Shown: positions 9,650-62,129, counted from the first letter of the whole stretch. The stretch is DNA of 62,465 nt, filler included, from Collodictyon triciliatum (GCA_043381765.1; 5 parts of 5 records of this genome joined end to end with filler, not necessarily neighbours in it), one strand, 5' to 3'. Program-made: numbers and translations. Notes: generated by a model from the sequence alone, not told the origin.

Positions 9650-12600
9650 GAGCGAACCAGGGCGAATACATGTGATTGCAGTGATGGTAGCATTTCTTTT
9701 CATCTTATCTTGCAGTGCTGTATCGTATTGTAATGCGGTGAAGCAGTTGATGTTTTGCTCTCTCTCTCTGTGTTCTCTAATTTTATTTATTTTTACCCTT
9801 TCTTTCAATTGTACAAAATGGGGATGTCTTGGTTTTGTTTTACTTTCTCTGTTAACTAAATAAACATGATAAAAACATCAAGAAACACGATTCCAACATT
9901 TCAAATAATTCTAGGAAAATTTTATTCTAAAGAAACGGGAGCATGCATTTCGTGCCCAATCGGATACTAGTAAGTATATTGTGTATGTGGAATGATGGTT
10001 CCAAATTTCAAGCATTCTTCTCACTTGTGCTAAAAAAATAATGAACCGAGCATTTTTTCATCTTAAAATTTCCTTAGTTGTCCTTCATCATCAGACGACC
10101 CAATTCCTTGCCCAGCCGGGTACTACTCAACTGAGCCACTAATAACATCCCAATCAAATTGCAAAGTACGACGGCTTTAAATCATATCCAATCACGAATT
10201 CGTATTGTATGCCATTTGTACACACCCCTATAGTATGAATAGAGGAACAGTATCCATATGTAGTCATTTGATCTTAACAGTTAATTACATAACTCATCAT
10301 CATCATATTACCACAGCAATGCCCCGAAGGAAGCATATCACCTCTTGGTTCGTCTGGTTGCTTGGTGTGTCCACCAGGGACATATTCGAATGCAAACAAG
10401 ACAAGTTGCGAATCTTGCCCAAGAGGATTCAGTTGTGATGCAGGAGTCTCTACTCCGTGCGCAAGTGGTCAGTGGTCTCTGGATGGATTTGATTCATGCC
10501 AAACTTGCCCGATTGGACACTATTGCCCATCTAGAGACTCTCCCCCTCTAAAATGCTCTCCTATCAATGGTAGCAATCTAGTTTGGTTTCCATAAATATG
10601 CCAATCATTAATACATATTACCCGGGAGGGATTTCGTAAATCCGAGTCTATAGCAAAAAATAAAAAAATACTAATGTAATTCGCTTTCACCAGGAGCCAC
10701 AACTGAAATGGGTTCTATTGAATGTTCCTTCAGTCCTGGGAGAGTTTATTTCGGTGGTGGGTTGAGCTCTGTGTGCTTTCCTGGTTACTATGCAAACGGA
10801 ACTGGTATTGCAATTAAAAAAATCGTGAAATTTTGATTGGTATCCAATCATTGATTACATTTTATGCATTTATCTGTGGGGATTAAAAAAAATGAAGAAA
10901 CGGCCGCGAAATCTAGGCGACCACATTTTTTTATTTATCTGTTAGTAATCATGAGACTAATTGGTCATTGAACAATAAAGTCTGCTCCAAGTGCCCTCGT
11001 GGTTATTCTTGCCCTGATGGTGTAAACCTCCAGCAGTGTTTGAAAGGAGAATTCTCAAATCTCCAAGGGTCAGTCTCTTGCTACCCTTGTCCCAGAGGAT
11101 TTTCATGCTCTTCGACTATGACAGCTCCGTCAATGTGTCCTTTAGGGACATTTTCAGCAGCAAAATCAGGTAAGAATTCTCGCATTCCTTACTACAATTA
11201 ATTATGTAGTTCGCATATGTTACCCTTCCTCAATCGAAGCACGCGATAATACTTATCCAGCTACCATAGTTGAGACCCTAATCAATAATTTTCCCAATTC
11301 AAATAGTTTCCTGTACAGAATGTCCTGAGGGCTCTTATTGCCCTTCACCCACGACGGTTGTGCCTTGCCCCATAGGAAGTTACAGCATACCAGGTCAAAC
11401 ACAGTGCACGAAATGTCCAAATGGGTACTCATGTCCAGACATTGATTTTCCTGTAAGATGTCCGGCCGGCACTTATAGACTTCCTGGAGAAAAATCCTGC
11501 AAAACATGCCCTGCAGGTGATTATAATAGTATCTTATTTTGTTCATTTTCTTCATATAATTTTAATTAGACCATTTTTCCATGCTGGATCCTATCCGAAT
11601 CACGACGCAATTTTTTCATATTCGATTGATCAGATAAATCTTTTAGGTCATTATTGTCCTGAGTCATCCAATTTTCAGATTTCAGCCTGCCCATATGGAA
11701 CTTACTCCACTGGAGGAGCAGTCGCCTGCACACCATGCCCCCCAGGACAATCATGTTCAGACCAAAAATCCACACCAGTTAGCTGCCAGAATGGATATTA
11801 CTCCTTGGCTGGGGAGGTACCACTCACTAATTTGTATTATACCATTTCATATATGAAGATTAGTTTACTGGTTACATTTGACGACTTGTCTATTTTATCT
11901 CTTGTTTTCTTAATCTAGTTACCTTTTCAACATTACTATTACCATTACTTCATAGCAAACATGCAAGCCATGTCCGCCTGGGTATGAATGTTCTGATAAG
12001 GTCTCGCTCGTTCCCTGTTCAGCCGGAAAGTACTCACAGGGGTAATCTCAATTTAATGACCAAACACCTTTATATAACTGGCTACCAAATGGGAACATCA
12101 NNNNNNNNNNNNNNNNNNNNNNNNNNNNNNNNNNNNNNNNNNNNNNNNNNNNNNNNNNNNNNNNNNNNNNNNNNNNNNNNNNNNNNNNNNNNNNNNNNNN
12201 NNNNNNNNNNNNNNNNNNNNNNNNNNNNNNNNNNNNNNNNNNNNNNNNNNNNNNNNNNNNNNNNNNNNNNNNNNNNNNNNNNNNNNNNNNNNNNNNNNNN
12301 NNNNNNNNNNNNNNNNNNNNNNNNNNNNNNNNNNNNNNNNNNNNNNNNNNNNNNNNNNNNNNNNNNNNNNNNNNNNNNNNNNNNNNNNNNNNNNNNNNNN
12401 NNNNNNNNNNNNNNNNNNNNNNNNNNNNNNNNNNNNNNNNNNNNNNNNNNNNNNNNNNNNNNNNNNNNNNNNNNNNNNNNNNNNNNNNNNNNNNNNNNNN
12501 NNNNNNNNNNNNNNNNNNNNNNNNNNNNNNNNNNNNNNNNNNNNNNNNNNNNNNNNCAACAAGTTGTCCTGCAGGGTCATACTCCAAAAGCGGGTCTCTC

Positions 12601-13024: not shown

Positions 13025-13124
13025 NNNNNNNNNNNNNNNNNNNNNNNNNNNNNNNNNNNNNNNNNNNNTTAATTAATTAANNNNNNNNNNNNNNNNNNNN
13101 NNNNNNNNNNNNNNNNNNNNNNNN
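13025..13124. other. Artificial contig-joining spacer
   Basis: 44N-TTAATTAATTAA-44N, giving stops in all six frames. Confidence 0.98.
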
Positions 13125-13241: not shown

Positions 13242-14028
13242 GAAGGCAATCTCTTATGTTTTTAGAGAATTTGCAAAAAGATTTCAGCAGACTTTTTGGT
13301 TTAGAGGCAAGTGCAAGCGTGGCTCTTCTCTGTTGGCGCCTGCTCTCCATAGCCTTGAGGATGTCTTCCAACCGCGCCTGCGTGTCTTTCTCTCTGTCTG
13401 TGTCCTACAAAAAAAGCACGGCGTCAGCACAGACCTGCGTGTGCATGCAATAAAAAGCCGGAGAGGCGGAGACCCCCACTTCCTTTGATGCCCGCTCCGT
13501 CTCGGACGACGACGCTGCTGTTTGCGCTGCAGCTGCGGTGGCGATCTGCTTTGGAGGCTGAGCGGGCTCGATCGGGGCTTTCTTGTCGGGCTGCGCGTTT
13601 GGAGACGCTGAAGCTGCAGACGGCGCTTTGTGTGCGGTTGTCGGTGTTGGCGGGGTCGAGTGCGCTGCGGCTGCAGAGGCGGGCGTTGTCTTTGCCACGG
13701 ACGGGGAAACCGGCACAGAGGCCGATCCGCCCGCGGGTTTGGGCTGCAGAGGTAAGCGTTTTGTGTGAGTGGCTGCGATCAGGGCAGGCGGATTCCTTCT
13801 TGCTTGCGTTTGTGTGTTTGTGTGTTTGTGTGTTTGTGCGTTTGTGTGTTTGTGTGTTTGCGCGTTTGTGTGTTTGGGTGTTTGGGTGTTTGGGTGTTTG
13901 GGTGTTTGGGTGTTTGGGTGCTTGGGTGTTTGTATGTTTGTGTGTTTGGGTGTTTGGGTGTTGCTTACTTTGCTGCGCAGCTGCGACGGGACGGGTGCGC
14001 GGCTCGACATGGGCTCTGTGTGCTGCAA
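13242..14028 (-). CDS. Hypothetical low-complexity Pro/Ala/Ser-rich protein, multi-exon, 3'-partial
   Basis: ATG at 14028 (MQHTEPMSSRAPVPSQLRSK|gtaagc), then an intron filled with 8-bp CACCCAAA repeats, a Pro/Ala-rich exon, and DTQARLEDILKAMESRRQQRR. GC-rich and coding-like. Confidence 0.5.
13805..13960. repeat. 8-bp (TGTTTGTG/TGTTTGGG)n intronic repeat
   Basis: Directly visible. Confidence 0.9.
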
Positions 14029-14287
14029 TGTGTTTCGTTACGCTCTCTTTTGTTTTGTCGGGCGCCTTCAGAGAAGGATGGTTGGGGCGCAGCGTGTTTT
14101 CAACCGCGCCGTGTGTGGGTGTATTTGTGGTGGAAGGAGCGAGCTATGCTGCGGTGTTTGATTCCTGCAATTTCACTCACGGCCAATCAGGCTGTTTGTC
14201 TGTTTGTTTATTTGTGTTTGTGTGGTTGGAAGAGTGACTCGGGTTTATGGGAGGGCGGGCGGGCGAGATGGCCGGATGAAGGGGCCG

Positions 14288-15243
14288 CTACTTTGTCTTT
14301 GCGGGGTCTGTGCGGGTGGACTTTGCGATTTCGTTGATGGAGTGGTAGATGAGCGCGCTGGGCAGGAAAGTCCAGAGCATGTTTGCGAGGACAAAAAAGA
14401 TGTAGAAGAAAAAGATCTTTTCGGGGGTGAAGCTGAAGTCTCCTGCGGTGGGATGGGACAAGGTGAGAGTTGGGTTGAGGCAGTTGGAGCGAGTCAGAAT
14501 ACAGGACAGAGGGCGAGTCAGGCAGGCAAGGGAGAGGTCGGAGAGAACGCACCGTCGCGGACAACGTGTTTGAAGCCCGTCAGAACCTCCCCGAAGGTGA
14601 AGATGATGCAGCCCATCAGCTGGAGCGCAGAGACGAGGATCTGCAGCGGGTGGAAGTGCGGCTTGCGCTGCAGCAGGGCGTGGAAAGTGGCCAGGCATAG
14701 CGGCTGCATGATCAGCAGCTCCACGGCCGAGACGGCCATCACGTACGGGTCCTTGTCCGGGTATCTATGCGAGAAGCAAAGGGCAGTGCTCAGTACCACA
14801 TGTGCCGCTCGTGCCCGGGTCGGCGCTCATACCGCGAGTCCAGTATGCCGTACAGCTCGTAGAGCGGCGGAAAGAGCCCGAGCAGCCCAACCATCCCGTC
14901 AAGCCAGCAGTGGATCACGAGCCCATTGAAGACATACCTACAGCACACAAACATGAACATAGACATATTCGCACACATGCTGAGCCTTTGCTCGTTCTTC
15001 TCATGTCTTCTTTCGTCTGGTGGTCGGAAACATTCGCTCTCCTCACCAAAGGAAAACCTCGTCTCACCTCAACAGCGCGGTTCTGTTAAGGGGCAAGGAA
15101 GAGACTCACCAGAAGGCGAGAAGCTTTTGGCGGAAGGTCAGACGCTCTCTGGCCGGGAATGACGTCCTCCACACAAACAGCCACACCACCAGCATGAACA
15201 GCACACAGTAGCCTTCCTTCTCCATCTTTCTGGCCCCCTTCAT
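14288..15243 (-). CDS. EBP: EBP-family (EXPERA domain) sterol delta8-delta7 isomerase / EBP-like protein, 4 exons
   Basis: Spliced reading: MKGPEK...QKLLAFW|YVFNGLVIHCWLDGMVG...ELYGILDSR|YPDKDPYVMAVSAVELLIMQPLCL...HPLQILVSALQLMGCIIF...|FFYIFFVLANMLWTFLPSALI...KTK*. It matches EBP motifs W..IH...[ED]G, D.RY, E, LQ..VS..QL.G and N..W..[LI]P. Confidence 0.85.
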
Positions 15244-15411
15244 GAATGCGCAGTCAGTCAGTCTCCGTACTCGAACTTGCCAGCTTCGTATTCGTGACCC
15301 TCTCCCTCTCTCCCGTCAACGCAACAGCAACAGAGTCCGCCGCGCTATTATATGCCGCCGCTCTGATCAAGTAAACAAACACTACGCGAAATAGACACCC
15401 ACAGAATCTAC

Positions 15412-15620
15412 ATTTAAATGCTGTCGATTTATTCCATAACCACAACGTCTCTGTGATTCGTGATTCATTTTTTGATTTATTTGTGTGTTTATTTATTCTG
15501 CTAAAAGGAGTATACCATCTTTCGATTGGTAAACCTGGTCCCCTAGCATCCAAGGTCTCACCACTTTATTCACAAACATCATATAGTGGTGAAGGCTGCC
15601 AGGAAAGACCCAACAGCCTG
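15412..15620 (-). ncRNA. Candidate Fanzor omega-RNA scaffold
   Basis: Lies directly 3' of RuvC-III. Consecutive minus-strand stems: AGGCTG..CAGCCT (15619-15593), TCACCACT..AGTGGTGA (15592-15558), CCTTGG-ATG-CTAGGG, TACCAATC-GAAA-GATGGTA (GNRA loop, 15531-15513), AATCACA..TGTGGTT, and a terminal palindrome CATTTAAATG. Confidence 0.6.
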
Positions 15621-17514
15621 ATTTTTTAAAGCAAGGTGTATGCTTTTTTTGAAGGATTAAAACAACTTGCTTGATTATATTATTAGCGCTGTTAAAGTCC
15701 CTTGTCAAGGATACACTTTGTTTGCTTTCTGAGCAATTGCATTCTTTACATATGAGACATCGATACAACTTTTTTTGTATTTCCTTACGGAATCATACAT
15801 TCCAGTTCTTCGCAGTTACAACACATCTTGGATGTTCTAAATTCATCTACGCTAACTGTTTCAAAACGTTTGGATATTATTTTTCGTAACCCTCTTCCGA
15901 TTGCCGGCTTAAAATGTTTCATCTGACATTTTCTACTCCAGTCTCCATACGCCAGTACAACATCATCTCCAAATGTCTTTTCGATTCGATCCATAAACAA
16001 CTGTTCACTTCTTTTTGTATTAACATACTGTCTCCATCTCATCTTTCGAAAAGTTACTTGTTCATAAAATCTGAATAATTCTATCTGGAATCTTGATTTC
16101 ATATACATGTTTTCGAAATTGTCCATAATCAACCGTGCATGAATTTTGAACACTCAGTTCTATCTCTAAATCGATTAAAGATACTCTTGATGTCTCAAAC
16201 TGCTGATTCTCTTCAAAAGTTCTGTGACAAAAAGAAACAGCACTTTGTAAATCTGTTGTCATGCATATCCCTGAAGCTTTGTGCTTTTTTTTCTCGCGCA
16301 AGAGTATTTTGTGATTTTTAAGAGATTTGCTATCACGTCTTCTTTGGTGTGCCGTGTAACGTATTTCTTACCTGCCTCATCCACCATGTAAACAAAATTA
16401 AACTTGCCTGCATCCATCCCAACTATATTTTATTTTCCCTAATAAAGATAAATGCTCTTCGGAAAGTTCATCTATATAAACATTTTTTTGGGTTTTTTGA
16501 TTACATTCGGATTTTTGAATTTGAAATGCCTTTCTTTTCAAACAATAATGACACCCCCAAGCTGTCTGTCTGTATCATGTATATAAAATTTTAGTCTCTT
16601 TGATGAAAGACCCTCTTCTTCATTTCAAAGAAATTATCCCATACTTTCTTTTTGCATTCTGATATATTCTTCAGTAATATTGTTTTCCAGTTAATGCTAA
16701 TGGATCTATCAAACATGCAGTATCTAGAGTAATATGACATGGTATATTGTTAGTTCTTATAGACTGGTTGTAACTGTTTGGTTCCAATGTCCTCGCATAT
16801 GTGATTCATGTAAATGAGACATGGAACGTACTTATTTGGATTAACTTTGACATCATATTCGATACCTTTTACAATATCGCTGGGAATGATATGATTCAAA
16901 TGCATTCTAGCCCATCTTTATATTGTTACTGTATTACGAGATTCTTGAATATGGCGCTTTTTTCAACTTTCGTAACTCTGCCTTTTTAATAGCTTCCATC
17001 ATATTCTCATCTTTATGATCTGTTTGGTTTACAAAGCGCAGTAACCTCTTTACAAAATGTTCCTTAATGTTATTATGATAAGCTGCTAACATTTGCTTCG
17101 CCAAGTACGGTAATACATGAGACAGTCCAACCAACGGAAAGCATTCTTCTCGGGACAAAAGGAATCGAAAATCATTGAGATAAAAAGTCATCATGTCGTC
17201 TCTCAAACCTGGATTTTTTTTATTATTAATCTCGCGGGTCTATCTTGTGAAACTATTCCGATTGACTTTAAAGCGTACAAAAAAAAAAAAAAAACATTTT
17301 CATCGATTGTTGGGAGTTGTTGAGATTTCAATATGTAACATCTTGCAAACAGATAAGTGTCGGTAACCAAATTATGACACAATAAAACCATATCGTTGAT
17401 TTCGTCATAGTCATCCGGATTCTTTACAATCGACTTTAGGGATGTTTTCACATTTCGATAGTCTGGTTTTACAAACTTTAGATTCTCAGACTCAAGACAT
17501 TTTCTTTTCTTCAT
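15620..17514 (-). pseudogene. Fanzor1: Fanzor1 (eukaryotic TnpB-like RNA-guided endonuclease), multiply frameshifted
   Basis: Collinear fragments: VKTSLKSIVK..YLF..LPTIDE; YLAKQM..NNIKEHF.KRL.RF; EYDVKVNPNKY..IYMN; RTNNIPCHITLDT; YMIQTDSLGVSLLF; RuvC-I IVGMDAGK (Asp at 16412-16414); RYTAHQRR; FYEQVTFRKMRW; AYGDWS; VDEFRTSKMCCNC; CKEC...RDFNSANNI (zinc finger plus RuvC-III). About 8 or more frameshifts/stops. Confidence 0.92.
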
Positions 17515-18199
17515 CTGAAAGGCTTTGTTTTACTTTTTCCTTTAGAAAACTACCGGGTTTTCAATTTTAATAAACCTTTAGCCAATCAGTCAATTTAATA
17601 TTAAAAAAACGCACAAACTCAACTTAAGTAAAATTAAGCATCTACCAAGACTCAAAATGTGCACATTGTGGCAATCAGACACACAAAGTTTTTTTTATAA
17701 GTGATTTGAGACAAAACCTTGAGGGCCGATTCGGCGAGTTCGAAAGGACGGCTGCATAGCCATTGCGATTAAAAGTCAACTTATCGGCCCCAAACAACAT
17801 GATTACCGCCACAAGCATGGATAGTATGCTTTTTTGAAATGCATATTTGGTGGCAGGTTTATAGGGTGGGTTCTGTCTGAGCCAACGCAAGGGCTTGTTT
17901 GTCATTTTTTAAATTTTAATGATAATATTACATAAATGAAAAATAAAATATAAATTAATTACAGGAATAGAATAAGTTATTAAGTATTTTTTTAACCTTA
18001 TTATATATACTAATAATACTATTATATTATTCAGGTTGTTTCTTGGATTCATCAATGCTCATGCTTTCGTCAATCCAGATTTAATTCGATGGTTGTCTGT
18101 GCAATAAAATGGTATAAATGGGTACACTCTCGTTTTATAAAAGGTGCTGTGTTTGAAAGGGATAAAACCAAGTTCGTCACAACCTTTGGGATGAAGTTT

Positions 18200-19000
18200 A
18201 TCCATTTACAGGCTGAATGAGAAAAGAACGGAAAAGAAAAAGAAAAGAAAAGAAAAGAAAAGAAAAGAAAAGGAAAAAGGAAAGAAAAGAAAAGGAAAAG
18301 AAGAAAAAGAAGAAAAGAAGAAAAGAAGAAAAAAGAAAATAGAAACGGATGAATGAATCAGAGCAACTAATGCTGAGCATTGTAGTCATACTTATATTGC
18401 TGCCCGTGTTTCGGTGGCTTGAGCTCGCTCCATCTTTTTTTCTTTCCTTTTATCGTTCGTTTTAAATAGCTCGATCCGCCTTATTAGTGGATTGCTGTAC
18501 TCACGGGTCGGTGGTAGCTGGTGCCATGATCGTTGGTGTGTCTCGGTGCATAACCTGTGTAGCAAGGGATGAGGTAAAGTGACCTTTTTGCTCTCTGCGT
18601 CGGCTGCGTCGGCCTTCTCGTTTTGCGTACGATCGGTAGGCATTTCGTGACGCTGGTCTCCTGGTAGGCGTTCTCGTCCTTCTCGGGTTCCCTCTTTCCC
18701 ATCACTTGCTTTTTTTCCGGCTTCAGAAGGTGGCGGGTTGGGAGAAGAAGGAAAGATGGCCAACGCGATAATATTATTTCTGGAGAATGCCTCCTCTCTC
18801 AGTTTTTATTGTTTCTCAGTAAAGACTTTTCTTGATTATTGCGATTTCTTTTGTTGTTCCTATCAACCGCCTCTCTCAGTTCGACCACTACATATATTCA
18901 CATTGTGTGAATAATAATAGATTAACTTTTTGGATACCTCTCTATTCACGCAAATAAACAAACAATTCCTGAAAATTTGATTATAGATTCCACAATAGAA
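18200..19000 (-). repeat. Dispersed duplicated segment, copy A (copy B at 38450-39285 +); contains an exon with an IPCYTGYAPR motif
   Basis: Aligns by eye to copy B across ~800 bp, e.g. CATCCCTTGCTACACAGGTTATGCACCGAGACAC vs CATCCCTTGCAACACAGGTTATGCACCTAGACAC, and TTAGTTGCTCTGATTCA in both. Confidence 0.85.
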
Positions 19001-19298
19001 TATGCTACGCTTTGTGACGTTTTTTCGCGCTCCTCTTTGCATCATTTCCGTTCAGAGTTTCCCTTCCGCTCTGTTCTACGAAAATTATTTTGATCACGTG
19101 CCAGAACCAAGTGCTTGTCAAAACAATAAAGAGTCAGACGCCAGAACCCCGAAAAACTCATCAAGCAACTACGAATCCTGGTCGATTAACCTTTACAACT
19201 CTCCCCATAAACGCCTAGAGCTCGTAGTTCAGATCAAACCACCATATACATCAAACCAAAGCGAAGGAAAAAAAAAAAAAACACAGCAAAACCAGGAT

Positions 19299-21245
19299 AT
19301 GGTAATGAAGATTAGCACAGTTGAAAATGACATAAGAATTGACGACATTGAGCGAAGTGAAGGATGGACCAGTGAAGAGATGACGGATAGTGCTGCTCCA
19401 ACCCCCAACACTTGCGAGCAGAGGCAGAATATCCCTGAAAATGTTAAGATAGCAGGCAGCCAACAACACCCTCGAGACTCTGACGAGGTTATAATTAACT
19501 TGGTTTTGAATAAGAGAACAATACTCATCGACAAGAGAAAAGTTGTTATGTCCTCTTTCATTAAAGATGAGAAGGTTTTCAGAATAGTATCCAAGCTATG
19601 CAGGAGCTATTACATGGCTTACGCGAATGCGTTTCTTTGGGCTGTTTGCAACACGAATTTCATCTCGGTTTCCTTCCATTCCCCTATTTTAAAGGGTTGG
19701 GTATGCCTCCTCGTTCAGTTGGCAAGTTCAGTGGTATTATGCGTTCAGTTTTCGTCTCTTTACAGAACAGATATTATCAAGCACATGACTAGTTCATTCA
19801 ACTTTTGGTTTTCTCTGTTGAACATCGGGATATTCGTAGGCTGCTTTGTGTTTCTCTGGGGATTCAACACTGAAAATATCTGCGCAGCGTTGCATATTTT
19901 TATCGGAATGGTAATAATGACATTTTACGATGCACACATCCGAAAAGATCATAATTTGATGAAAGCAACCAGTTTCATTGCAATATGTAGTTTGATCCCC
20001 ATTGGAGTTAACTTGATTTTCAAAGTGAATGATTTCGAGATAGAAAATGTTAATCCTGGTCAATTGGATTTCGAGTTAATCAACCTGCGGCTTCAAGCTT
20101 TGGATAGTTTGAGTACAGTATTTGTGTACTTACTTCGAATTTTTTACAACCAGATTATTCTAAAAAATGTTAACGTGATTTCGTTTCTATCAGATTATTA
20201 TGAAATATCTTTTCTCGAAAATCAACTTAATGTAAAAAATGATCCGAATATCGCAAAAAATATTCAAGAAGTTTCTCATGCAAATTTTAATAGTCAACCC
20301 GGTACAGTGATGAAAAAAATACCACCAGGAGATGACCGAAATGTGTTTGACTCCAGAAAGCTAGATTCAATATTTTTGGCAGAAAGTCAAAATTACAGCA
20401 TTAAAGAGAATGGAAATAACTCAAAGACTAACGGAGTTGAAAAAATCACAAAGGAAAACCGTACACCTTCCACAGTGCCAAAATTAAATGAAGAAATTCA
20501 CAGTCAATCTAAAAATCTCTTGGCAATTGGAATACCAGAAAGTAAGATTATACAATACAGTTTGCATAAAAATTTATTTCATATCACAATCCGCAAAAAT
20601 TATCCTCATTTAGCGATTATGTTACGTTCCAAAATCTATCATTTGCACGGGATTATCATAATTCTTTTTTCATCGATATTTTGTTTTATGGTGTTTTCTG
20701 GATTCAAAATATCAAATTATGTTCAATTTATTGGAATCGGCACTACTGCTTCAAGTATTATCATAATCATATCCCAGATAGTGACGACATCGAACTTTAC
20801 AATAATTACCTATATGGTCAAATCTTTCGATTTCTGGTACTTTTTCTTCCTTGTAAGCAAGATACTTATTTCCTCCGGGTTTCTATGTCATTGGGATTAT
20901 CGTGTCATTTTCTGTGTATTTTCTGTTTTGTTGCTTTACTGGTACATTTTGATTGATGCATTTAGCATTAAAATCAGAAAGCTATCCTATTTTTCCATCA
21001 TGGGCATAGTTTGGACATTTTGTACAGCAATAATATGTAAATTGAATATAGGTGATATATTTTCACAAGACAACTACATATATCTTGGGAAAACCCAAAT
21101 ATTCTCCCCAAGAATCACCCTTTCTACGTCTTTGTTTTCTGTTTCCATATTTCTGGTTCGATTTCTCTTGAGCTACAGGAAAAATCAGAATCGAATGCTT
21201 TTCATCACAGAAAATTTTCTGGTACAAAGCGTTAGTCATTCTTGA
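19299..21245 (+). CDS. Uncharacterised intronless multi-pass membrane protein with internal duplication, paralog 1
   Basis: Long ORF, open from 19002 with the likely start at ATG 19299. Two hydrophobic halves each carry SF[ND]FW. Shares blocks with 23591-25558 (NLRLQALDSLST, SPRITLS, NRMLFITEN). Confidence 0.9.
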   Translation: MVMKISTVENDIRIDDIERSEGWTSEEMTDSAAPTPNTCEQRQNIPENVKIAGSQQHPRDSDEVIINLVLNKRTILIDKRKVVMSSFIKDEKVFRIVSKLCRSYYMAYANAFLWAVCNTNFISVSFHSPILKGWVCLLVQLASSVVLCVQFSSLYRTDIIKHMTSSFNFWFSLLNIGIFVGCFVFLWGFNTENICAALHIFIGMVIMTFYDAHIRKDHNLMKATSFIAICSLIPIGVNLIFKVNDFEIENVNPGQLDFELINLRLQALDSLSTVFVYLLRIFYNQIILKNVNVISFLSDYYEISFLENQLNVKNDPNIAKNIQEVSHANFNSQPGTVMKKIPPGDDRNVFDSRKLDSIFLAESQNYSIKENGNNSKTNGVEKITKENRTPSTVPKLNEEIHSQSKNLLAIGIPESKIIQYSLHKNLFHITIRKNYPHLAIMLRSKIYHLHGIIIILFSSIFCFMVFSGFKISNYVQFIGIGTTASSIIIIISQIVTTSNFTIITYMVKSFDFWYFFFLVSKILISSGFLCHWDYRVIFCVFSVLLLYWYILIDAFSIKIRKLSYFSIMGIVWTFCTAIICKLNIGDIFSQDNYIYLGKTQIFSPRITLSTSLFSVSIFLVRFLLSYRKNQNRMLFITENFLVQSVSHS

Positions 21246-21364: not shown

Positions 21365-23590
21365 AATGTCTTTCGTCAACTGCATCATGCTTTCGAATGA
21401 ATTTATAAAGAACCTCACAACACAATAAAAAATTTTTACAGCAGCGACAAAAACTTAATTTGGCTTTGAGATTCAGACCAAAAATATTCGAAAAGTGAAT
21501 TTTTTATGAGACTTCCATTCAAAAGAATTTACATTTTTTAATTTATGGTTCATTTAGGCAAAATCTATTACTTTGGGACACATAAATATCCCTTCCAAAC
21601 ACGATGCGATTTAAATTTTGAAAATATCATCATCTACTCTTTCAGGTCTATGCAATATCACCGTGTTGTTTTTTCCGGTCTTTCGATTTTACAATATTTT
21701 GACATTTCTTGGTCGATTTTAATCTGATATGATAAGAACATGAGTGTCATCATATATTGTGGGTGTAATCTACTCATTTAATAGATAATTGACTAAGAGG
21801 ACAACAAGTACAAATGACATGTTTATTTCATCGTATGAATTTTCAATTATCCTCGGAATGTAAATAGCTTCTCCCATTAACTCTGAAAGGAGAACCTAAT
21901 GTAAATGTCGCTTAATTTTAATATTTAGTACTTTTTCGTATCATTCTTAGCAACTTAACTCTCGCCTTCTTGGTGGTGTCAGTATCACAAATTTTTTGAT
22001 CATTTTCATCCGTCATTTATTCCAAGTTGAACTTCCTTATGTCTACCTCAATTGGAGTTCCTAGGTATCTCGAAAAGACTCTTTTTTATCTTATTTAATT
22101 TTTTATAAATAAATAAATAAAGCGACAATAGTCAGACCCTTCGATGGAGCGAAGTTAAAAAGCGGTAATCCTCGGTATTTTCATATATTTTTCTCAGATA
22201 CCTTAAAGGCTTATGAGCTCATAAATTTTTACTATCATTTTTTATCCCAGCAATTATACATCGATACTTTGTTTCATCAAATAAAATGATTTGGATTGTA
22301 ATTCTTTTAATGAACCCTCCTTTTACAAGAAAAACACCATTTTATGCACCCCAGCATTTTACTTCGATGAATATCTTAAAAAAATTGGCTTTTCATTTTC
22401 TGGCCTCACAGTAAATTTACATTTAAAATTAACATTATGAGTAAAATACGTGTAAATTGAAAAGTTTTAGAATACCTTAAATTCTTTCTCTCTAATAATT
22501 ATGTGTAAAAAATTAAATGTTGCGGTCATATTTTTTTTTTCTGGTCGAGCTATTAAATTTTACGGAATATCAGTTTCGCCACGGCCACATTATTTCCGAA
22601 ATCACAATCCTAGACGGTATCAGTATTCCAGGTGATTTTTTTTTACCCTTTATTCGATCCAAGCTTTTATTATTCCATAGGGATTGCTTTACAAATAATA
22701 CTTCGTTTCACAGTCCTCTCCTTACATATTTGAGTGTTTTTTTTTTTTTTGTTCTTCCATTCAATTTTTTGCCGGATGATAGGGATATCGACTTTGGTTC
22801 GCAAGCCTTTGTTTACGTGGGCTTTACTTGATGGCCTGGAGGCAGAAGTAGTCGGTAATCAGAAATTGAATGATTTATAATTTTTTATAACCATTTGCTA
22901 ATTCGAGATCATCCATTTCATAATCGCATGCTGCCTTGGTTGGTAATCAATTATAATTAGTTGTTAATATATCTCATTCCTTGACTCAAATCAAGACATT
23001 ATCAAATATATAATCTATGGTTCTTGATGCATGTCCAGCCTATATTCAAAGCTGTCATAAATAAATTTTCATCATATGAAGGCAGCCACACCTGTTACAT
23101 GATTTAAGTATTGTGTAATTGGACGGGATTGGCTTCAGTAATTTTTTCATCTGATGGCAGACTATTTAGAAAAGTGTTACTAAACGAAGAGCAACTGGAA
23201 TTCTATAATTTTTACATATTTCTCAATCTGCAACTAACTTTGAATGATACGCTATGTATAATCTAGCTGAATTGACGTTTAAATCTTGAATAATTTAATT
23301 TCCACATATATACAAAGAATTCCACATATATATTGATTTCAAAGGATTGGGAGTCTGCCACAACGGGATGCAAAAAAACATAAAAACTACTTTCAAAAAA
23401 AACCAAACTCGGTGGGCGGTTGCTTCCGGCTGGGCTATCCTTTCTCCCTGCGTAACCATCACTATTTTTTTTCATCGTGACATACCAAGCACTTTTTGTG
23501 CCCTGGCACATAGGCAACTTCTTTTTATCTCGGTTGATAATCGTGTTGAAAGCGTATTTCTGAATCCGAAAAAAAATGTCATAAGCAAGT

Positions 23591-25558
23591 ATGGAAGTTG
23601 TGCCTCTGGAAGTCGAACAGAATGCTTCTGCAGGAAAAGTGTATGAAGTTTGGAGGGACGAGGATAACGAGCCTAGTAGCAGCAAGGATTCTAAAGTCAG
23701 ACAAGAGAACTTCTCATGCGAAAACAATATTCCCGATTATGGTTCCCCTCCGCCGCAACCAAAGGAAGTCCAAAAATCTATTGTTACGCTTACTTTGCAT
23801 AGGAAGGTCAAGCTCATTGACCGTAGGAAGTTCGTACTGTCTCTGTTTGTAAAGAATGATCAAACCTGCAAAAAACTTATGGCATTCCTTCGTGGCCTAT
23901 GGTTTGTGCAACTTGTCATATTTTTGTGGGTCACGTGTAGTGTTAACTTTCTATCCATATGTGTTGGAGCGCCAATTTTGCCCTCTGTAGCTTATCTTCC
24001 CTTACAAGCTGCCAGTATGGTTTTACTGACTATTCATTTGTCTAGTTTACTAAGAGTTGATGTTATCAAACAGCTTTTGACATCCTTTAATTTTTGGTTC
24101 TCACTGCTCAATGTTATTATTTACAATTCGTGCTTTGTTCTGTTGTATGGACAGACCCTGAATAACTTTTGCGCAACAACATACTGTTTAGTTTGTATGG
24201 GACTTATTCTACTACACGATTCACATTCGAGGAAAAATAACAACCTTATAATGTTACCAAGCGTAATAGCTTTTCTTGGATTTCTTTTAATGCTAGTATG
24301 TCTATTTTTTCGCCTTGTGCAGATTCAAAAAGAGGTGTTCCGCCTAAATTCAGGGCTAGAGCTAGTCAACATCAGACTCCAAGCTTTGGATAGCCTAAGC
24401 ACTCTAATCATATATCTACTTCGTATTTTCTATACACAGATGATTCTCAAGAAACCAAATACAATTGCGCAATTATCTGAGTACTATGAAATATCGCCTC
24501 CAGAAATCAAACAAGAGGACAATCGAAACCTAAAATCATGCCCGAAAAAATTTAAACATCACTCGATAAGTAATCAAAAAAGCCCTTCTACATTAGAAAG
24601 AAAAATGGGCTCAATTGTCCCGCAAGTAAACAATATGGAAGAATCGAATGATAAACATTTACAACCTGATAATAGATTTGAGTATAGCCAAAGCCTTTGT
24701 GAGCTTCAAAGTATTCGTAATCCTGCGCCACCAATTGAATCAACATCAGTTATCAGATCGGAACTGGTGAGCAGTCAAAATAATATGCAAACTTTTTCGG
24801 ATGTGGATAGCAAAAAATTCCTTGTTATGGGGATTGTGGAGAGCAAGACGATTGAGTATAACCTTCACGATACATGGTTTCACACTATTATTAAGCCAAA
24901 CTACCCCTTGGTAGCTGGAGTAATGAAGACAAAATTTTACACTGTGTTTGGAATTATTTTGAGTGTAACATCTCTTCTCGTTTCGTTTCCTATAACTGTC
25001 GGGGTCGATCTTGCAGACCCGTTCGCATATTTTTCTATGACTGTTTCTGTTGTTTGTAGCATCAACTTGTTTTTTCAAATCACAGTATTGTCCAACTTTT
25101 TAATTCGAAAACATATGCTGCGGTCATTTGATTTTTGGTACGTTGTCTCTTTAGTTTCAAAAATACTGTTATCATCAAGTATACTTTGCCAATGGGACTT
25201 TCGAGTTTTATTCTGGGTGTATTTGGCCCTGCAATTTCTTTGGTTCGTAGCTGTAGATGGTTACGATTTGAAGGGTCGAAGGTTGTCATACTTTTCGATT
25301 ATTGGTATCATCTGGTGCTTGTCTGCTGGGGTCTTCTGTAAACTCGGTATAGGTGAGACTTATATCGAAGACAGGTATATTTATTTCCACGGAAGACAAG
25401 TCCTTTCCCCTAGAATAACCCTATCTTCATCGCTTTTTTCCATCTCCCTGTTCCTTTGCCGTTTTTTGTGGAGCTACCATAGAAACCCAAACCGAATGCT
25501 GTTCATTACGGAAAACGTTCAACTTCAGGAAATCCGAAAGCCGCAGCCGGCAGAATAA
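23591..25558 (+). CDS. Uncharacterised intronless multi-pass membrane protein with internal duplication, paralog 2
   Basis: 655-aa ORF with halves containing LLTSFNFW and MLRSFDFW; collinear with 19299-21245. Confidence 0.92.
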   Translation: MEVVPLEVEQNASAGKVYEVWRDEDNEPSSSKDSKVRQENFSCENNIPDYGSPPPQPKEVQKSIVTLTLHRKVKLIDRRKFVLSLFVKNDQTCKKLMAFLRGLWFVQLVIFLWVTCSVNFLSICVGAPILPSVAYLPLQAASMVLLTIHLSSLLRVDVIKQLLTSFNFWFSLLNVIIYNSCFVLLYGQTLNNFCATTYCLVCMGLILLHDSHSRKNNNLIMLPSVIAFLGFLLMLVCLFFRLVQIQKEVFRLNSGLELVNIRLQALDSLSTLIIYLLRIFYTQMILKKPNTIAQLSEYYEISPPEIKQEDNRNLKSCPKKFKHHSISNQKSPSTLERKMGSIVPQVNNMEESNDKHLQPDNRFEYSQSLCELQSIRNPAPPIESTSVIRSELVSSQNNMQTFSDVDSKKFLVMGIVESKTIEYNLHDTWFHTIIKPNYPLVAGVMKTKFYTVFGIILSVTSLLVSFPITVGVDLADPFAYFSMTVSVVCSINLFFQITVLSNFLIRKHMLRSFDFWYVVSLVSKILLSSSILCQWDFRVLFWVYLALQFLWFVAVDGYDLKGRRLSYFSIIGIIWCLSAGVFCKLGIGETYIEDRYIYFHGRQVLSPRITLSSSLFSISLFLCRFLWSYHRNPNRMLFITENVQLQEIRKPQPAE

Positions 25559-26156: not shown

Positions 26157-26256
26157 NNNNNNNNNNNNNNNNNNNNNNNNNNNNNNNNNNNNNNNNNNNN
26201 TTAATTAATTAANNNNNNNNNNNNNNNNNNNNNNNNNNNNNNNNNNNNNNNNNNNN
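26157..26256. other. Artificial contig-joining spacer
   Basis: 44N-TTAATTAATTAA-44N. Confidence 0.98.
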
Positions 26257-27170: not shown

Positions 27171-28967
27171 AGTATTTTATCTTAATATTGTTAATATTTC
27201 CTCCAGGTTTAATTTTTAAATAACTCTTTACGAGGCATACCACATCAATCAACCAACCCCAAGATCTACGGCATTCATTTTTTTCGACGTATGTTATTTA
27301 AAAAGTGCTACTCCTTGAAGTCAGTGAGATTCAAATCATTTACAATTTATTTAAATATTGAAGAAAATGTTAAAATAACTCTATTAGATAAAAATTCATT
27401 TGTGTGACCAAAAAAAGAAAATTTACCAACGATTTGTGTGTTTTTATACAAGGCACACGTATAAGATGGGGGCCTTTAACATTATATTACAACATCTCTT
27501 AGGAAAAGAATGTCTGTGTGATTCAGCGATGTGCAGTATACACTCGACATTTTGACATGAAGGAAGTAAAATTCTTTATGTGTTCTAAATGCGATTTATA
27601 TTCTTGGATGTCAACGCTATATTATGAAAATATGACCCAACATAGGCTAAAGAAAGCATACCTAGTAGAATTAATACTTCTGAAATCGATCAGTTCGATA
27701 TTTATCTAACTTCAAAATTTTAAATGAAGTAGCTTTACCTTTATACACATATTATACTTCAAATTGAAATGAATAGTAAAAAAAAGTAACGTAATTGCGA
27801 TTTCTCTGCACTTATATTTATTCCTCAAATTAAAATGGTCTTTCTGAATCCGATAGTGAAAAACATTTAGAGAATGGCGGAGCTGGGAAGTAGAAAGTGC
27901 CTAGAAAATTTGAAAGCTAATCTTATTAATATGAAAATCATATCCATACGTTATTTCAAATCAAATTATAGCATGAAAACAATAGGTAGAGACGTAAAAT
28001 TTCGTTTTTCTTTAAAGAAAGGCTGTATAAAGTACATGATATTCCTTTCTAACATGATTTATGTAAATAATTTAGATCGCCGATTTTTTTATTTATTGAA
28101 GACCTAGCGTGAAAAATATCTTTGATCATATTGTGCTTGATTTATTGCATAGCATCTGAAGAGTGATTACATATATAACGATTCATTCAAAAATCATAAT
28201 TTTCCAATATGTATCCAAATCGTAAACCTTAAGCTTTTTTATTAATTGTTTTAAAAAATTGTACAAAAAAGCTCAAAGGGGACTTTCATCGACTAAATAA
28301 TAGACACTTTTACCATTATTTAGAATTTCGAATACTATAGAGACGCTTTGATACACATTCTGAATGAAACATATTCTTTTTATTTCTTTATATTGCTCCA
28401 ATGATGCAATATTTTAATTACTCATCGGGTCATGAGAATGATGTAATCTATGTCTAGTTAATATATAAATAATTCTCTCATATCTACAGTTTCTTTACAT
28501 TCTTCCGCCAAGTAACTGATTAGTCCAAAATAATTGACTTATTTAAATAAGTTCAAATATATTTTTCACTTGCTTTATTATAAATCTAGCTATCTGAATG
28601 TCTGTTTATTTAAATATTTCTGTATTCAATATCCATGCATTACGGTTATATATATGTGAATTCTTTAAAATAAATACAAAATTATGAAAAGATGGGAGCA
28701 TGTCGTAAATTTTGAAATAATTATACCTTTCTGTACAGAAAACCCGTGCTTTTTTTCTTGTAATAAATAACGCCATCTTGGCATCTAAAATATTTTATTA
28801 AATATTTTCTATTATCAGAATGATTGCCCTTAAGATGCAAGTATCTGTAATTATCTTATTAGGTATGCTTTATAATTTTATTGTATACATTTCAATTATC
28901 CTGATCTGTTTTCTGCGCAGGGATAGTACTGTATGCGCAAGTTGTTGAATCAGATGCGGACGATTAC

Positions 28968-29832
28968 TTGGTTCGCACATTGACTGGTCATGACTCGAGT
29001 GTCACCAGCGTTGTTGTTACCCCTAATGATTCAAAAATCGTATCTGGAAGTGATGATACCACAATTAAAATATGGAATTATTCTGATGGGGAATTGATTC
29101 GCACAATTACCGGGCATACCTCAAGTGTGAAAAGTGTTGCACTAACTCCAGATGGTTCAAATATTATTTCTGGAAGTGCCGATTGGAGTGTTAAAATCTG
29201 GACTATTTCTGACGGAATTTTGATTCGCACAATGACCGGGCATAAGTTAAATGTCAATAGTGTTGCAGTTACTCCGGATGGCTCACAAATTGTTTCTGGA
29301 AGTGCTGATGCTACAATTAAAATCTGGAATCTTTCAGATGGAATTTTGAATCGCACAATAAGTGGGCATGACTCAGGTGTCAGTAGTGTGGCACTTACTC
29401 CAGATGGATCAAAAATTATATCGGGAAGTTTGGACAAAACTGTTAGATTATGGAGCCTTTCTGACGGAACACTAATTCGCACGTTGAGAGGTCATACCCA
29501 AAGTGTTTTTGACGTTGCAGTTACCCCAGATGGCTCAAGAATCGTCTCAGGAAGTTTTGATAGATCAGTCAAAATTTGGGATATTTCTGGTGGATATGTC
29601 ATTCGCACATTAAATGGACACATGAATGCGGTAAGAGGTATTACAGTCACCCCAGATGGCTCAACAATCGTCTCTGGAAGTTCTGATAACACTGTAAAAC
29701 TGTGGAATCTCTCTGACGGGAATTTGACTCGTTCATTGATTGGCCATAAATCAGGAGTTTTCAGTGTTGCTCTTAGTTATGGTGGCTCAAATATTATCTC
29801 TGGAAGTAACGACAATACAATTAAAATATGGG
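28968..29832 (+). repeat. Seven 126-bp (42-aa) WD40 coding repeats
   Basis: Consensus LIRTLxGHxxxVxSVAVTPDGSxIVSGSxDxTxKIW, seven times. Confidence 0.95.
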
Positions 29833-29976
29833 GAACTTGCGATGATGGCCGTTTTTATAATAAAACTTCAAAAACATGCGAGCTATGTTCGGCTGGAAGT
29901 TACAGTGTCTCAGGCAGTGATGTTTGCACATTGTGTTCTCATGGAACCTATAATCCATCGGAAGGAAAGTCCTTTT

Positions 29977-30305
29977 GTCTGTCATGCCCAAAAGGAACCT
30001 ACAATCCGTCAAATGGTTCTATAAGCAAAGATTCGTGTACTTTGTGCGATTCAGGAACTTACAATCCCTCAGAGGGCTCAAAAAGTCGAGATGCATGCAT
30101 TTTTTGCGAAGTTGGAACATACAATCCCGAAAAAGGTCAGTCTTCATGTCTGTCATGCCCAAAAGGAACCTACAATCCATCAAATGGTTCTATAAGCAAA
30201 GATTCGTGTATTTTGTGCGATTCAGGAACTTACAATCCCTCAGAGGGCTCAAAAAGTCGAGATGCATGCATTTTTTGCGAAGTTGGAACATACAATCCCG
30301 AAAGT
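29977..30305 (+). repeat. 171-bp (57-aa) near-identical tandem duplication
   Basis: GTCTGTCATGCCCAAAAGGAACCTACAATCC at 29977 and 30148. Confidence 0.9.
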
Positions 30306-30794
30306 GGCCAAATAACATGTCAATATTGTTTGGAAGGAACTTACAATGGCATTGTTGGACAATCGCTTTGCAAAAGCTGTGAGCCAGGGACATACAATAA
30401 CTTGAGAGGACAGACATCCTGTTTTGATTGTCCATCAGGATTCTACAACACAGAATCTGGAAAATCATTTTGTACTCCTTGTAGCCCAGGAACATAATCT
30501 AATTCTACAATGTCAAAATCTTGTGAGAAGTGTCCAGCTGGAACATATAATCCAAATCCTGCATCATATAACAAAACAGATTGTAAGAAATGTGATGTAG
30601 GAACATATGCATCTGAATCAGCTTCAATAATGTGCTTTATGTGCGTTTCAGGGACTTACAACGATGTAGAAGGACAAATTAACTGCAAGAGTTGCGCTGA
30701 TGGAACACAAAATCCCAGGTTTGGTGCAAAAAGTAATGCTTCATGCATATCTTGTGCACAAGGAACTTATGGAAGTAAAGAAAAAAGTGAATGC

Positions 30795-39035: not shown

Positions 39036-39079
<44 letters not shown>

Positions 39080-39285
39080 TGAAGGTGAATAAAAAGACGG
39101 ATCAAGCTCTAACCATCGACCCACAGGTAGCAAGATAGGTATGATTATATTCCTCAGTATTAGTTGCTCTGATTCAATCATGCATTTCTTTTTCTTTATC
39201 TTTTTCTTTATCTTTTTCTTTTTCTTTTTCTTTTTCTTTTTCTTTTTCTTTTTCTTTTTCTTTTTCTTTTTCTTTTTCTTTTTCT
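38450..39285 (+). repeat. Dispersed duplicated segment, copy B, with (GTTT)n, (AAT)n and (CTTTTT)n expansions
   Basis: Homologous to the reverse complement of 18200-19000; encodes IPCNTGYAPR; lacks the ATG and ~63 bp present in copy A. Confidence 0.85.
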
Positions 39286-43910: not shown

Positions 43911-51026
<7,116 letters not shown>

Positions 51027-62055: not shown

Positions 62056-62129
62056 TATACTTTAATTTAGCTCGTCGAACCCAATTTTTTAAAATATTTT
62101 TTGTAGATGCATTGAAAACGAATGATTTT

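What the first reader, a model, noticed from the sequence alone, without database searches (positions are those of the whole stretch)
15620..17514. Full-length but shattered Fanzor1 RNA-guided nuclease gene
Seen: a ~600-codon gene recoverable only by frame-hopping. It keeps RuvC-I D (VGMDAGK), the GDWS motif, the DEFRTS glutamate, a CxxC/CxxC zinc finger and RuvC-III D (RDFNSANNI). Knowledge: this rearranged RuvC-II layout and the long N-terminus (NNI..HF, IP..IT.DT, IQTD..VS) characterise Fanzor1 from protists, fungi and giant viruses. Inference: the lineage hosts, or hosted, an OMEGA-type programmable nuclease family. Intact siblings or a consensus could be a new editing tool.
Basis: partly seen in the sequence, partly recalled or inferred. 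Interest (0 to 1): 0.82.

Follow-up and report, generated by a model that had tools for sequence, protein, structure and literature searches.

The report
Dead Fanzor1 nuclease gene copy
This stretch is a decayed, non-functional copy of a Fanzor1 gene (a eukaryotic RNA-guided DNA cutter carried by mobile DNA); the identification is right, but broken copies of this known family are ordinary.

Summary
Window 15579-17514 (minus strand) reads colinearly over residues 1-640 of an intact 648-aa metagenomic protein, P0002. Identity is 391 of 631 codons (62%), and the reading is broken by 11 frameshifts and 3 TAA stops. P0002 and a 14-sequence family profile match the three solved Fanzor1 nucleases along their whole length (E 2e-28; profile E 3e-80 to 2e-63). 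The next PDB hits are at E 0.006 or worse.

The copy keeps the three RuvC acidic residues, GDWS, DEFRTS and the zinc finger. It has lost 5 of 37 family-invariant residues, including the Pro of the DPG motif. Host ORFs of up to 1296 codons in the same window are unbroken, and an independent 366-nt metagenome contig lies gaplessly across three frameshift sites and one stop. The lesions are therefore real.

About 400 contigs in each of two sequencing runs match 15.5 to 18.0 kb at 80-99%, so this is a multicopy repeat. No transposase, terminal inverted repeat or guide RNA could be shown in the window.

The nearest relatives (at most 47% identical to P0002) are intact genes in mariner-like elements on giant-virus contigs. 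Verdict: a new, dead member of a known family, of low to moderate interest.

The parts
15579..17514 (-). Fanzor1 pseudogene, from the ATG at 17512-17514 to the TGA at 15579-15581 in the last frame. It has 11 frameshifts and 3 TAA stops.
16409..16429 (-). RuvC-I segment NIVGMDAGK. The catalytic Asp is kept, but the Pro of the family-invariant DPG is replaced by Ala.
   Evidence: P365 is invariant in 55 of 55 relatives
15785..16153 (-). Longest open piece (122 aa stop to stop). It holds AYGDWS (where canonical TnpB has its RuvC-II Glu), the shifted Glu in VDEFRTS, and the first CxxC of the zinc finger.
   Evidence: phmmer of this piece found 1773 library proteins at E<=1e-3
15640..15766 (-). Second CxxC (YRCLICKEC) and RuvC-III (LTRDFNSANNI). 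A stop (15785) and a frameshift (15766) separate them from the first half of the finger.
16934..17514 (-). N-terminal (REC-type) part, with a basic MKKRK start and AYHNNIKEHFVKRL, in two frames. It is colinear with the N-terminal halves of solved Fanzor1 proteins.
15559..15618 (-). Two predicted hairpins at the gene's 3' end: 15594-15618 and 15559-15591, the second spanning the stop codon. This is where a guide (omega) RNA scaffold would be expected. It is inferred only.
   Evidence: (z -3.01; 2 of 200 shuffles fold as well); not confirmed
17515..18000 (-). Upstream non-coding part of the same repeat family. Sibling contigs cover it to the end of the stretch laid, so the right edge is not determined. 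Some siblings lack about 170 nt (17550-17720).
   Evidence: tables 2, 5 and 8

Best explanation
This is a pseudogene: one dead copy of a Fanzor1 gene inside a dispersed, multicopy DNA repeat of an unidentified eukaryote.

When intact, the roughly 645-residue protein would be a TnpB-type RuvC nuclease. It would bind a guide (omega) RNA transcribed from the 3' end of its own element and cut DNA matching the guide. That is the activity shown for SpuFz1, GtFz1 and others.

This copy cannot make that protein, because its longest unbroken run is 113 codons. It carries no transposase of its own. It therefore depended on a transposase supplied in trans, or it is a truncated remnant.

Its nearest relatives sit next to a Tc1/mariner-type DDE transposase inside TIR-bounded elements on giant-virus contigs.

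What is shown: homology, lesions, multicopy status and the architecture of the relatives. What is inferred: the former RNA-guided activity, the omega RNA and the mode of mobility.
For: 1. Colinear frame-hopping match to P0002 over residues 1-640, 391 of 631 codons identical.
2. P0002 and profile A1 hit only Fanzor1 among solved structures at significant E-values, and over the full length.
3. Catalytic Asp, shifted Glu, Asp, GDWS and four Cys are all present in the reading. The Bao and Jurka motif D-X(125,275)-[TS][TS]-X-X-C4-X(5,50)-RD is satisfied (section 6 of PMC3627910).
4. Decay: 14 disabling lesions. 5 of 37 columns invariant in 14 relatives are substituted: T140A, F243L, G314S, P365A, E391D. 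By contrast, 145 ORFs of at least 520 aa are intact among the 158 related loci.
5. The lesions are not assembly noise. ORFs of 1296, 748 and 657 codons are unbroken in the same window. Contig record 19 of run X3 (366 nt, 3 differences, 0 gaps) spans 16476-16841, which covers three frameshift sites and one stop (table 8).
6. Multicopy: 418 (X1) and 396 (X2) contigs match at 80% or better from about 15.5 kb to 18.0 kb, and none match 15200-15481. Near 4 of the 11 frameshift sites, some sibling contigs carry an indel of the size that keeps the frame open (tables 1, 2, 4).
7. Relatives: L001 and L002 have a DDE_3 plus HTH transposase divergent from Fanzor1, inside perfect or near-perfect 32-33-nt TIRs. 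They lie beside ribonucleotide reductase and mRNA-capping genes. 44 of 158 loci have such a transposase in their flanks.
Against: No terminal inverted repeat, target-site duplication or transposase remnant was found in the window. The element type and its right edge are therefore undefined.

No omega RNA could be shown:
- A covariance model of the relatives' conserved 3' RNA does not hit the window's 3' end.
- Direct alignment of the 3' ends is no better than shuffles.
- Rfam gives nothing.

Pfam and NCBIfam do not name the protein above threshold.

Run X3 may not be independent of the assembly's source. Only 4 runs were laid, all as contigs. The whole genome was not available.
Confidence: 0.9

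Rival explanations
1. The gene is alive, and the breaks are artefacts or are bypassed: assembly indel errors, tiny introns, programmed frameshifts, or TAA read as a sense codon.
For: Five of the 11 frameshifts lie next to T runs of 5-9 bases (17225, 16980, 16509, 15766, 15621). All three stops are TAA, and one aligns with a Tyr of P0002.
Against: - Six frameshifts are not at homopolymers.
- Neighbouring ORFs of 1296, 748 and 657 codons are unbroken under the standard code.
- The extra DNA at each break is only a few bases, too short for introns.
- A 366-nt contig from another run lies gaplessly across three frameshift sites and one stop, with 3 single-base differences.
- 5 of 37 invariant residues are replaced, including the DPG proline.
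Confidence: 0.03
2. The stretch is a relic of an integrated giant virus, not of a cellular transposon.
For: After P0002, the closest relatives are genes on giant-virus contigs (GVMAG and IMG/VR; 44-47% identical to P0002). Bao and Jurka proposed a viral origin for the Hydra element HMa-1 (sections 7 and 16 of PMC3627910).
Against: - Only the element itself is repeated. Cover by sibling contigs stops at about 15.5 kb.
- The flanks hold cellular-type genes (WD40, ephrin-receptor-like repeats). None of the 11 large ORFs scanned hits a giant-virus hallmark family.
- Hundreds of diverged copies fit transposition, not one integration.
Confidence: 0.05
3. It belongs to Fanzor2, TnpB or Cas12 and not to Fanzor1.
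For: A weak Cas12f1-like_TNB Pfam match (E 0.056 and 0.11, below the cut-off). The zinc-ribbon region also touches LaTranC and Cas12f chains at E 0.006 to 0.09.
Against: The full-length match is to Fanzor1 chains only (E 3e-80 to 2e-63), including the long N-terminal half. No NCBIfam TnpB model hits. No serine recombinase was seen next to the relatives examined (only L001 and L002 were scanned by Pfam).
Confidence: 0.01

Closest known systems
P0002, an unnamed intact 648-aa protein from an ENA metagenome assembly (2610-nt contig)
   Same: Sister of the window copy in the tree (support 100). 62% identical over 631 codons, with the same length, start (MKKRK) and motifs.
   Different: It is intact and comes from a different, unknown organism. 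Its DNA could not be fetched, so element ends and 3' RNA could not be compared.
Mariner-type Fanzor1 elements of giant viruses (PGv-1 type of Bao and Jurka 2013; here L001/L082 and L002/L083 on GVMAG and IMG/VR contigs)
   Same: The nearest relatives after P0002 (44-47% identical to P0002). The protein architecture is the same.
   Different: They are intact. They are paired with a DDE_3 plus HTH transposase and bounded by 32-33-nt TIRs. They carry a conserved, covarying RNA structure over the ORF's 3' end. The window has no transposase, no TIR and no detectable match to that RNA.
SpuFz1 / SPu-1 of Spizellomyces punctatus (PDB 8gkh), GtFz1 (9cer), PpFz1 (9cf0)
   Same: Full-length colinearity and the same catalytic layout. 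SpuFz1 residues D383, E541 and D606 coordinate the metal ions (passage of PMC10432273). SPu-1 is also a roughly 2.1-kb element with a single Fanzor gene, and only 9 of its 17 full-length copies have intact ORFs (PMC3627910 section 5).
   Different: The relationship is remote in sequence (E 1e-23 to 1e-28 for P0002). SPu-1 has 33-bp TIRs and putative TA duplications, and its omega RNA and cleavage are shown experimentally. None of this is shown here.
Decayed CMe-1A Fanzor1 copies of Cyanidioschyzon merolae
   Same: The same kind of object: frameshifted, stop-ridden Fanzor1 copies judged to be ordinary pseudogenes.
   Different: Another genome and another subfamily. I did not check those notes.

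Membership tests
Fanzor1 | TnpB/Fanzor long motif D-X(125,275)-[TS][TS]-X-X-C4 zinc finger-X(5,50)-RD (Bao and Jurka 2013) | tested here: met
   In the frame-hopped reading: D of GMDAGK, then TS-KM-CCNC, CLICKEC, TRD. The spacing is as in P0002 (D364, T558, C562/565/587/590, R603 D604) (motif). The finger is interrupted by a stop and a frameshift.
Fanzor1 | C-terminally shifted RuvC-II glutamate, with no Glu at the canonical position | tested here: met
   The window has AYGDWS and VDEFRTS. E555 is invariant in 14 of 14 and 55 of 55 relatives. The feature is as described in passages of bioRxiv 10.1101/2023.08.09.552727.
Fanzor1 | DPG motif at RuvC-I | tested here: not met
   This copy reads DAG. 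P0002 and all 55 aligned relatives read DPG. The change is private to the dead copy and is not a property of its family.
Fanzor1 | Full-length colinearity with solved Fanzor1 proteins, including the long N-terminal (REC) half | tested here: met
   Profile A1 positions 3-606 of 617 align to SpuFz1 chain residues 398-1029 at E 5e-79. PpFz1 scores 3e-80 and GtFz1 2e-63. P0002 alone scores 2e-28 to 4e-23. This is a sequence comparison only; no fold was predicted.
Fanzor1 | Closer to Fanzor1 than to Fanzor2, TnpB or Cas12 | tested here: met
   The next PDB hits are LaTranC at 0.006 and Cas12f at 0.045. There is no NCBIfam hit. I saw no solved Fanzor2 chain among the hits and did not check that one is in the library.
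Fanzor1 | Omega RNA encoded at the 3' end of the element | tested here: inconclusive
   The 3' 251 nt fold with z -3.01 and two hairpins. Model R1 from the relatives gives no hit there: 18 hits at E<=10 lie elsewhere, the best at 0.29. Alignment to the relatives' 3' ends is no better than shuffles. No RNA data were available.
Fanzor1 | Carried by a eukaryotic transposable element (repeat family with ends, TIR and/or TSD) | tested here: inconclusive
   The multicopy repeat is shown. No TIR was found: 55 of 200 shuffles score as well. There is no transposase remnant (best E 3.2), no second copy in the window, and the right edge is not reached.
Fanzor1 | RNA-guided DNA cleavage | not testable with these tools
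   It needs biochemistry, and this copy could not encode the enzyme.
Functional gene (any family) | Uninterrupted reading frame | tested here: not met
   11 frameshifts and 3 stops; the longest run is 113 codons.
Fanzor2 / IS607-type TnpB | Serine-recombinase TnpA neighbour and TnpB-like short N-terminus | tested here: not met
   The protein is about 645 aa with a long N-terminal half. The neighbours in L001 and L002 are DDE_3 transposases, not serine recombinases. No ORF of that kind lies beside the window copy.

The most novel reading that the evidence does not exclude
The window copy is a dead member of a still-active, high-copy Fanzor1 family in a poorly sampled freshwater eukaryote.
- A host ORF has no relative above 27% identity in 5.8 billion clusters.
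- Some sibling fragments are 99% or more alike (30 and 40 contigs in X1 and X2) and carry indels near some of the window's frameshift sites.
- The subfamily is at most 46% identical to anything else on record except P0002 and P0001.
- Its nearest kin sit in mariner-like elements of giant viruses.

The lineage may therefore hold intact, compact Fanzor1 nucleases acquired by exchange with its giant viruses. Their guide RNA would be embedded in the end of the ORF.
Probability: 0.3. Interest if true: 0.5.

Novelty: new member of a known kind. Interest (0 to 1): 0.3.

Why it matters
The copy adds one more decayed Fanzor1 to a family already described in protists, fungi, some animals and giant viruses. 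That alone matters little.

Three things are modestly useful:
1. It marks a distinct Fanzor1 subfamily (window copy, P0002, P0001). Its only intact representative is an unnamed metagenomic protein.
2. The family is amplified to hundreds of fragments in two sequenced relatives. Intact copies may exist there and could be tested as compact RNA-guided nucleases.
3. Its nearest kin lie in TIR-bounded mariner-like elements on giant-virus contigs. This fits the old proposal that large viruses ferry Fanzor elements between eukaryotes.

Tried and rejected
- **Whole-genome search:** no genome is held for this window.
- **First metagenome scan:** scanning with P0002 alone found nothing, because its patterns were private to P0002. 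The allowed second scan, with an alignment, worked.
- **Pfam and NCBIfam:** Pfam on 8 window pieces and on P0002 gave only sub-threshold Cas12f1-like_TNB matches. NCBIfam gave none.
- **Second copy or TIR:** I looked for either in the window and found none.
- **Transposase remnant:** searching with the relatives' transposases gave nothing.
- **Rfam:** 0 matches at gathering threshold over the whole window. One chance match at E 0.91 over 15300-18300.
- **By-eye resemblance at the 3' end:** I thought the window's 3' end (CTTCACC, hairpin, AGACC) resembled the relatives' conserved RNA module. Covariance model R1 gives no hit there. Local alignments to L001, L004, L003 and L027 were matched or beaten by 96, 57, 171 and 207 of 300 shuffles. 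I dropped the idea.
- **RNA evidence:** no RNA holder was listed among the sequencing runs. X1 and X2 are only guessed to be RNA.
- **Host identity:** two Atlas look-ups and one protein search gave no usable taxon.
- **Earlier notes of this scan:** none for this genome or for this sequence.
- **Structure prediction:** No fold comparison was made.
- **N runs as evidence of assembly type:** four pairs of 44-nt N runs recur about every 13.1 kb. They may be masks, so I did not use them.

Full report
**What is there**

They are NIVGMDAGK, AYGDWS, VDEFRTSKMCCNC, YRCLICKEC, LTRDFNSANNI, AYHNNIKEHF, NNIPCHITLDT and MIQTDSLGVS.

A word-indexed search with the longest piece (122 aa, 15785-16153) returned 2 proteins among 39 candidates. 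One is an intact 648-aa protein, P0002, 72% identical over that piece. The other is a 223-aa fragment, P0001 (75%).

tblastn of P0002 against the window gives 7 segments in three frames covering residues 1-631, at E about 1e-92.

My own frameshift-aware alignment gives the following:
- P0002 residues 1-640 run from 17514 down to 15588.
- 391 of 631 codons are identical.
- There are 11 frameshifts and 3 in-frame TAA stops.
- There are 9 unmatched residues and 6 extra codons.
- The longest unbroken run is 113 codons.

The final frame stops at a TGA at 15579-15581.

**What family**

Pfam and NCBIfam do not name it. The only matches are sub-threshold Cas12f1-like_TNB hits, and NCBIfam gives nothing.

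Against the sequences of solved structures, P0002 hits exactly three significant proteins, all Fanzor1:
- Guillardia theta Fanzor1 (9cer), E 2e-28.
- Parasitella parasitica Fanzor1 (9cf0), E 3e-24.
- Spizellomyces punctatus Fanzor1 (8gkh), E 4e-23.

A profile of P0002 plus 13 full-length relatives (A1) raises these to 3e-80, 5e-79 and 2e-63. It aligns positions 3-606 of 617 to the whole SpuFz1 moiety. The next chains (LaTranC, Cas12f, a transposase) score E 0.006 to 0.12 on the zinc-ribbon region only.

The family alignment has these invariant residues: the Asp of DPGK, G and W of YG(D/N)WS, the Glu of DE(F/Y)xTS, three Cys, and RDxNxxxN. In 55 sequences, D364, P365, G521, E555, D604 and N610 stay invariant.

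This layout has no Glu at the canonical RuvC-II place and a Glu just before the TS-xx-CxxC. Together with DPG, it is what passages of Yoon et al. (bioRxiv 10.1101/2023.08.09.552727) give as the signature of Fanzors and pro-Fanzors. It also fits the motif of Bao and Jurka (PMC3627910 section 6). A passage of Saito et al. (PMC10432273) names D383, E541 and D606 as metal-coordinating residues of SpuFz1.

**Dead or alive**

The copy keeps the three acidic residues and the four Cys. It has replaced 5 of the 37 columns that are invariant in the 14-sequence alignment: T140A, F243L, G314S, P365A and E391D. P365 is the Pro of DPG.

Five frameshifts lie beside T runs and six do not. The extra or missing DNA at each break is a few bases, too little for introns.

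Three ORFs in the same window are unbroken, at 1296, 748 and 657 codons. The assembly is therefore not riddled with indels.

A 366-nt contig of run X3 matches 16476-16841 with 3 differences and no gap. That span covers three frameshift sites and one stop (table 8). X3 may or may not be independent of the source sample.

By contrast, the 158 related loci from metagenomes and IMG/VR hold 145 ORFs of at least 520 aa that hit P0002, 125 of them distinct. I conclude that this is a true pseudogene.

**A repeat family**

Four runs were laid on 15200-18000 at 80% likeness or better. Runs X1 and X2 (two coded organisms of one study) gave 418 and 396 contigs. These are spread over all identity classes: 30/116/144/128 and 40/85/138/133 for 99+, 95-99, 90-95 and under 90%.

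The contigs cover from about 15.5 kb to the end of the stretch. They give zero depth over 15200-15481. The left edge of the repeat therefore lies between 15482 and about 15590, close to the stop codon. The right edge lies beyond 18000.

Many positions differ from the window in all sibling contigs. Near 4 of the 11 frameshift sites (around 16365, 16675, 16761 and 15766), a share of the siblings carry an indel of the size that keeps the frame open (table 4). Some siblings also lack about 170 nt at 17550-17720 (table 5).

Two freshwater metagenome runs hold a few pieces, some nearly identical.

Within the window there is:
- no second copy;
- no inverted repeat joining the two ends, since 55 of 200 shuffles score as well;
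- no trace of a transposase.

**Relatives and likely mobility**

A library-wide phmmer of the 122-aa piece found 1773 proteins at E<=1e-3. A full-length search with P0002 found 104 proteins at E<=1e-20 among 8000 scored candidates. None lies between 46% and 100% identity, and one carries the UniRef name "Transposase, viral metagenome".

The scans of sequence collections gave:
- JGI metagenomes: 358 relatives among 593 pattern matches, of which 80 loci were kept.
- IMG/VR: 526 of 578, of which 78 loci were kept, many labelled giant-virus MAGs.

Identity to P0002 is 37-47%.

In a FastTree of 181 rows, the window reading and P0002 are sisters (support 100). The next nearest rows by path are L004, L002, L001 and L003. 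The rows were the window reading with X at its breaks, 55 library proteins and 125 distinct locus ORFs. The tree is unrooted and has many long branches, so I draw no direction of transfer from it.

P0003 is the best library representative for the window piece. It is 88% identical to the L001 ORF.

In L001 and L002 the Fanzor1 gene lies about 320 nt from a divergent DDE_3 plus HTH transposase. Both genes sit inside 32-33-nt TIRs (100% and 97% complementary). The 3' TIR starts 16 nt after the Fanzor stop in L001. The neighbours include a ribonucleotide reductase small chain and an mRNA capping enzyme.

44 of the 158 loci, which include duplicates between the two collections, have such a transposase in their flanks. 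This is the mariner-type Fanzor1 arrangement that Bao and Jurka described for PGv-1 and related elements (section 7).

The window copy has only the Fanzor part. Its mobility, in trans or as a truncated remnant, is inferred.

**Guide RNA**

The last 251 nt of the gene region fold better than shuffles, with z -3.01 and 2 of 200 shuffles as good. There are hairpins at 15594-15618 and 15559-15591.

In the relatives, the 3' ends of L001 and L002 fold with z -4.6 and -5.2.

I then aligned a module that overlaps the end of the ORF. Of 119 3' regions, 37 were non-redundant. I kept 31 of those and dropped 6 because my pattern did not find the terminal GATTTTAC. On these 31:
- A 9-pair structure has 99.6% of cells paired.
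- 6 pairs have compensatory changes.
- 0 of 500 shuffles reach it.
- At most 47% of cells pair when the partners are slid.

This is very likely the omega RNA scaffold of that clade.

The covariance model built from it (R1) does not find the window's 3' end. It gives 18 hits at E<=10, the best at 0.29 and none in 15300-15900. Direct alignments are no better than shuffles, and Rfam has nothing. The omega RNA of the window's subfamily therefore remains a prediction.

**Host**

The flanking ORFs are cellular in type:
- a WD40 protein fused to ephrin-receptor-like repeats;
- a 1296-aa ephrin-receptor-like repeat membrane protein;
- two paralogous membrane proteins, 38% identical.

None of the 11 ORFs scanned is a giant-virus hallmark. 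The best database relative of one host ORF is 27% identical. Atlas look-ups gave no usable taxon. I can say only that the host is a eukaryote that reads the standard code, whose sequences turn up in freshwater metagenomes.

**Verdict**

The object is an ordinary decayed member of a known family. [quoted passage not shown]

The modest points of interest are the distinctness of the subfamily, its amplification in two sequenced relatives, and its kinship with giant-virus mariner-like elements.

**Papers and what I saw of them**
- PMC3627910: outline and sections 5, 6, 7 and 16.
- PMC10432273 and bioRxiv 10.1101/2023.08.09.552727: passages found by term search only.
- PMC10530073 and PMC13565253: the search listing and the start of the abstract only.
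- Supplements were not opened. The sequence files of Bao and Jurka might allow a direct comparison with PGv-1 and HMa-1.

Noticed in passing
L001:5824-5880, L027:5767-5855 and 29 further loci (alignment A6): The giant-virus and metagenome relatives share a conserved RNA module that overlaps the last codons of the Fanzor1 ORF. It has a 9-pair structure with 99.6% of cells paired, 6 pairs with compensatory changes, and 0 of 500 shuffles as good. It is probably the omega RNA scaffold of that clade.
   Followed up: yes
L001:2637-5952 and L002:2627-5949: A 3.3-kb element bounded by 32-33-nt terminal inverted repeats holds a DDE_3 plus HTH (Tc1/mariner-type) transposase and, divergently, an intact Fanzor1 gene. 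It lies on contigs with ribonucleotide reductase and mRNA-capping genes. 44 of 158 related loci have such a transposase nearby.
   Followed up: partly
window 17550-17720: A segment of about 170 nt just upstream of the Fanzor start is skipped in some sibling contigs of runs X1 and X2. It is either an insertion in this copy or a deletion in others.
   Followed up: no
window 17738-17925: Summed contig depth in X1 and X2 is higher here (350-480) than over most of the gene (about 100-450, typically about 200). This part may be shared with a more abundant repeat. Depth from contigs is a poor measure.
   Followed up: no
window 18999-21245 and 23585-25558 (+): Two neighbouring intronless ORFs (748 and 657 aa) encode paralogous multi-pass membrane proteins (38% identical, E 4e-132). 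They have no Pfam family and no Atlas look-alike.
   Followed up: partly
window 28905-30497 and 30888-34778 (+): One ORF fuses seven WD40 repeats to ephrin-receptor-like Cys repeats. It is followed by a 1296-aa ORF with 17 ephrin-receptor-like repeats and a multi-pass membrane tail (DUF7630 match). The best database relative of the tail is only 27% identical.
   Followed up: partly
window 18235-18600 and 38899-39285: An inverted pair of a 0.4-kb repeat (71% identical), unrelated to the Fanzor element. The second copy abuts a run of N.
   Followed up: no
window 13025-13124, 26157-26256, 39286-39385, 52428-52527; also 12101-12556: Four pairs of 44-nt N runs, 12 nt apart within a pair, recur about every 13.1 kb. 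There is also one 456-nt N run. The regular spacing looks like masking, not assembly gaps.
   Followed up: no
window 13300-15300: A block of GC about 0.50, with GT-rich repeats, abuts the AT-rich Fanzor element (GC 0.33 over 16001-18000). The shift lies near 15360, left of the repeat's edge.
   Followed up: no
window 18216-18345, 43339-43451, 48917-49017, 62126-62465: Purine-rich (GAA/GAAA-type) microsatellite tracts recur across the window.
   Followed up: no
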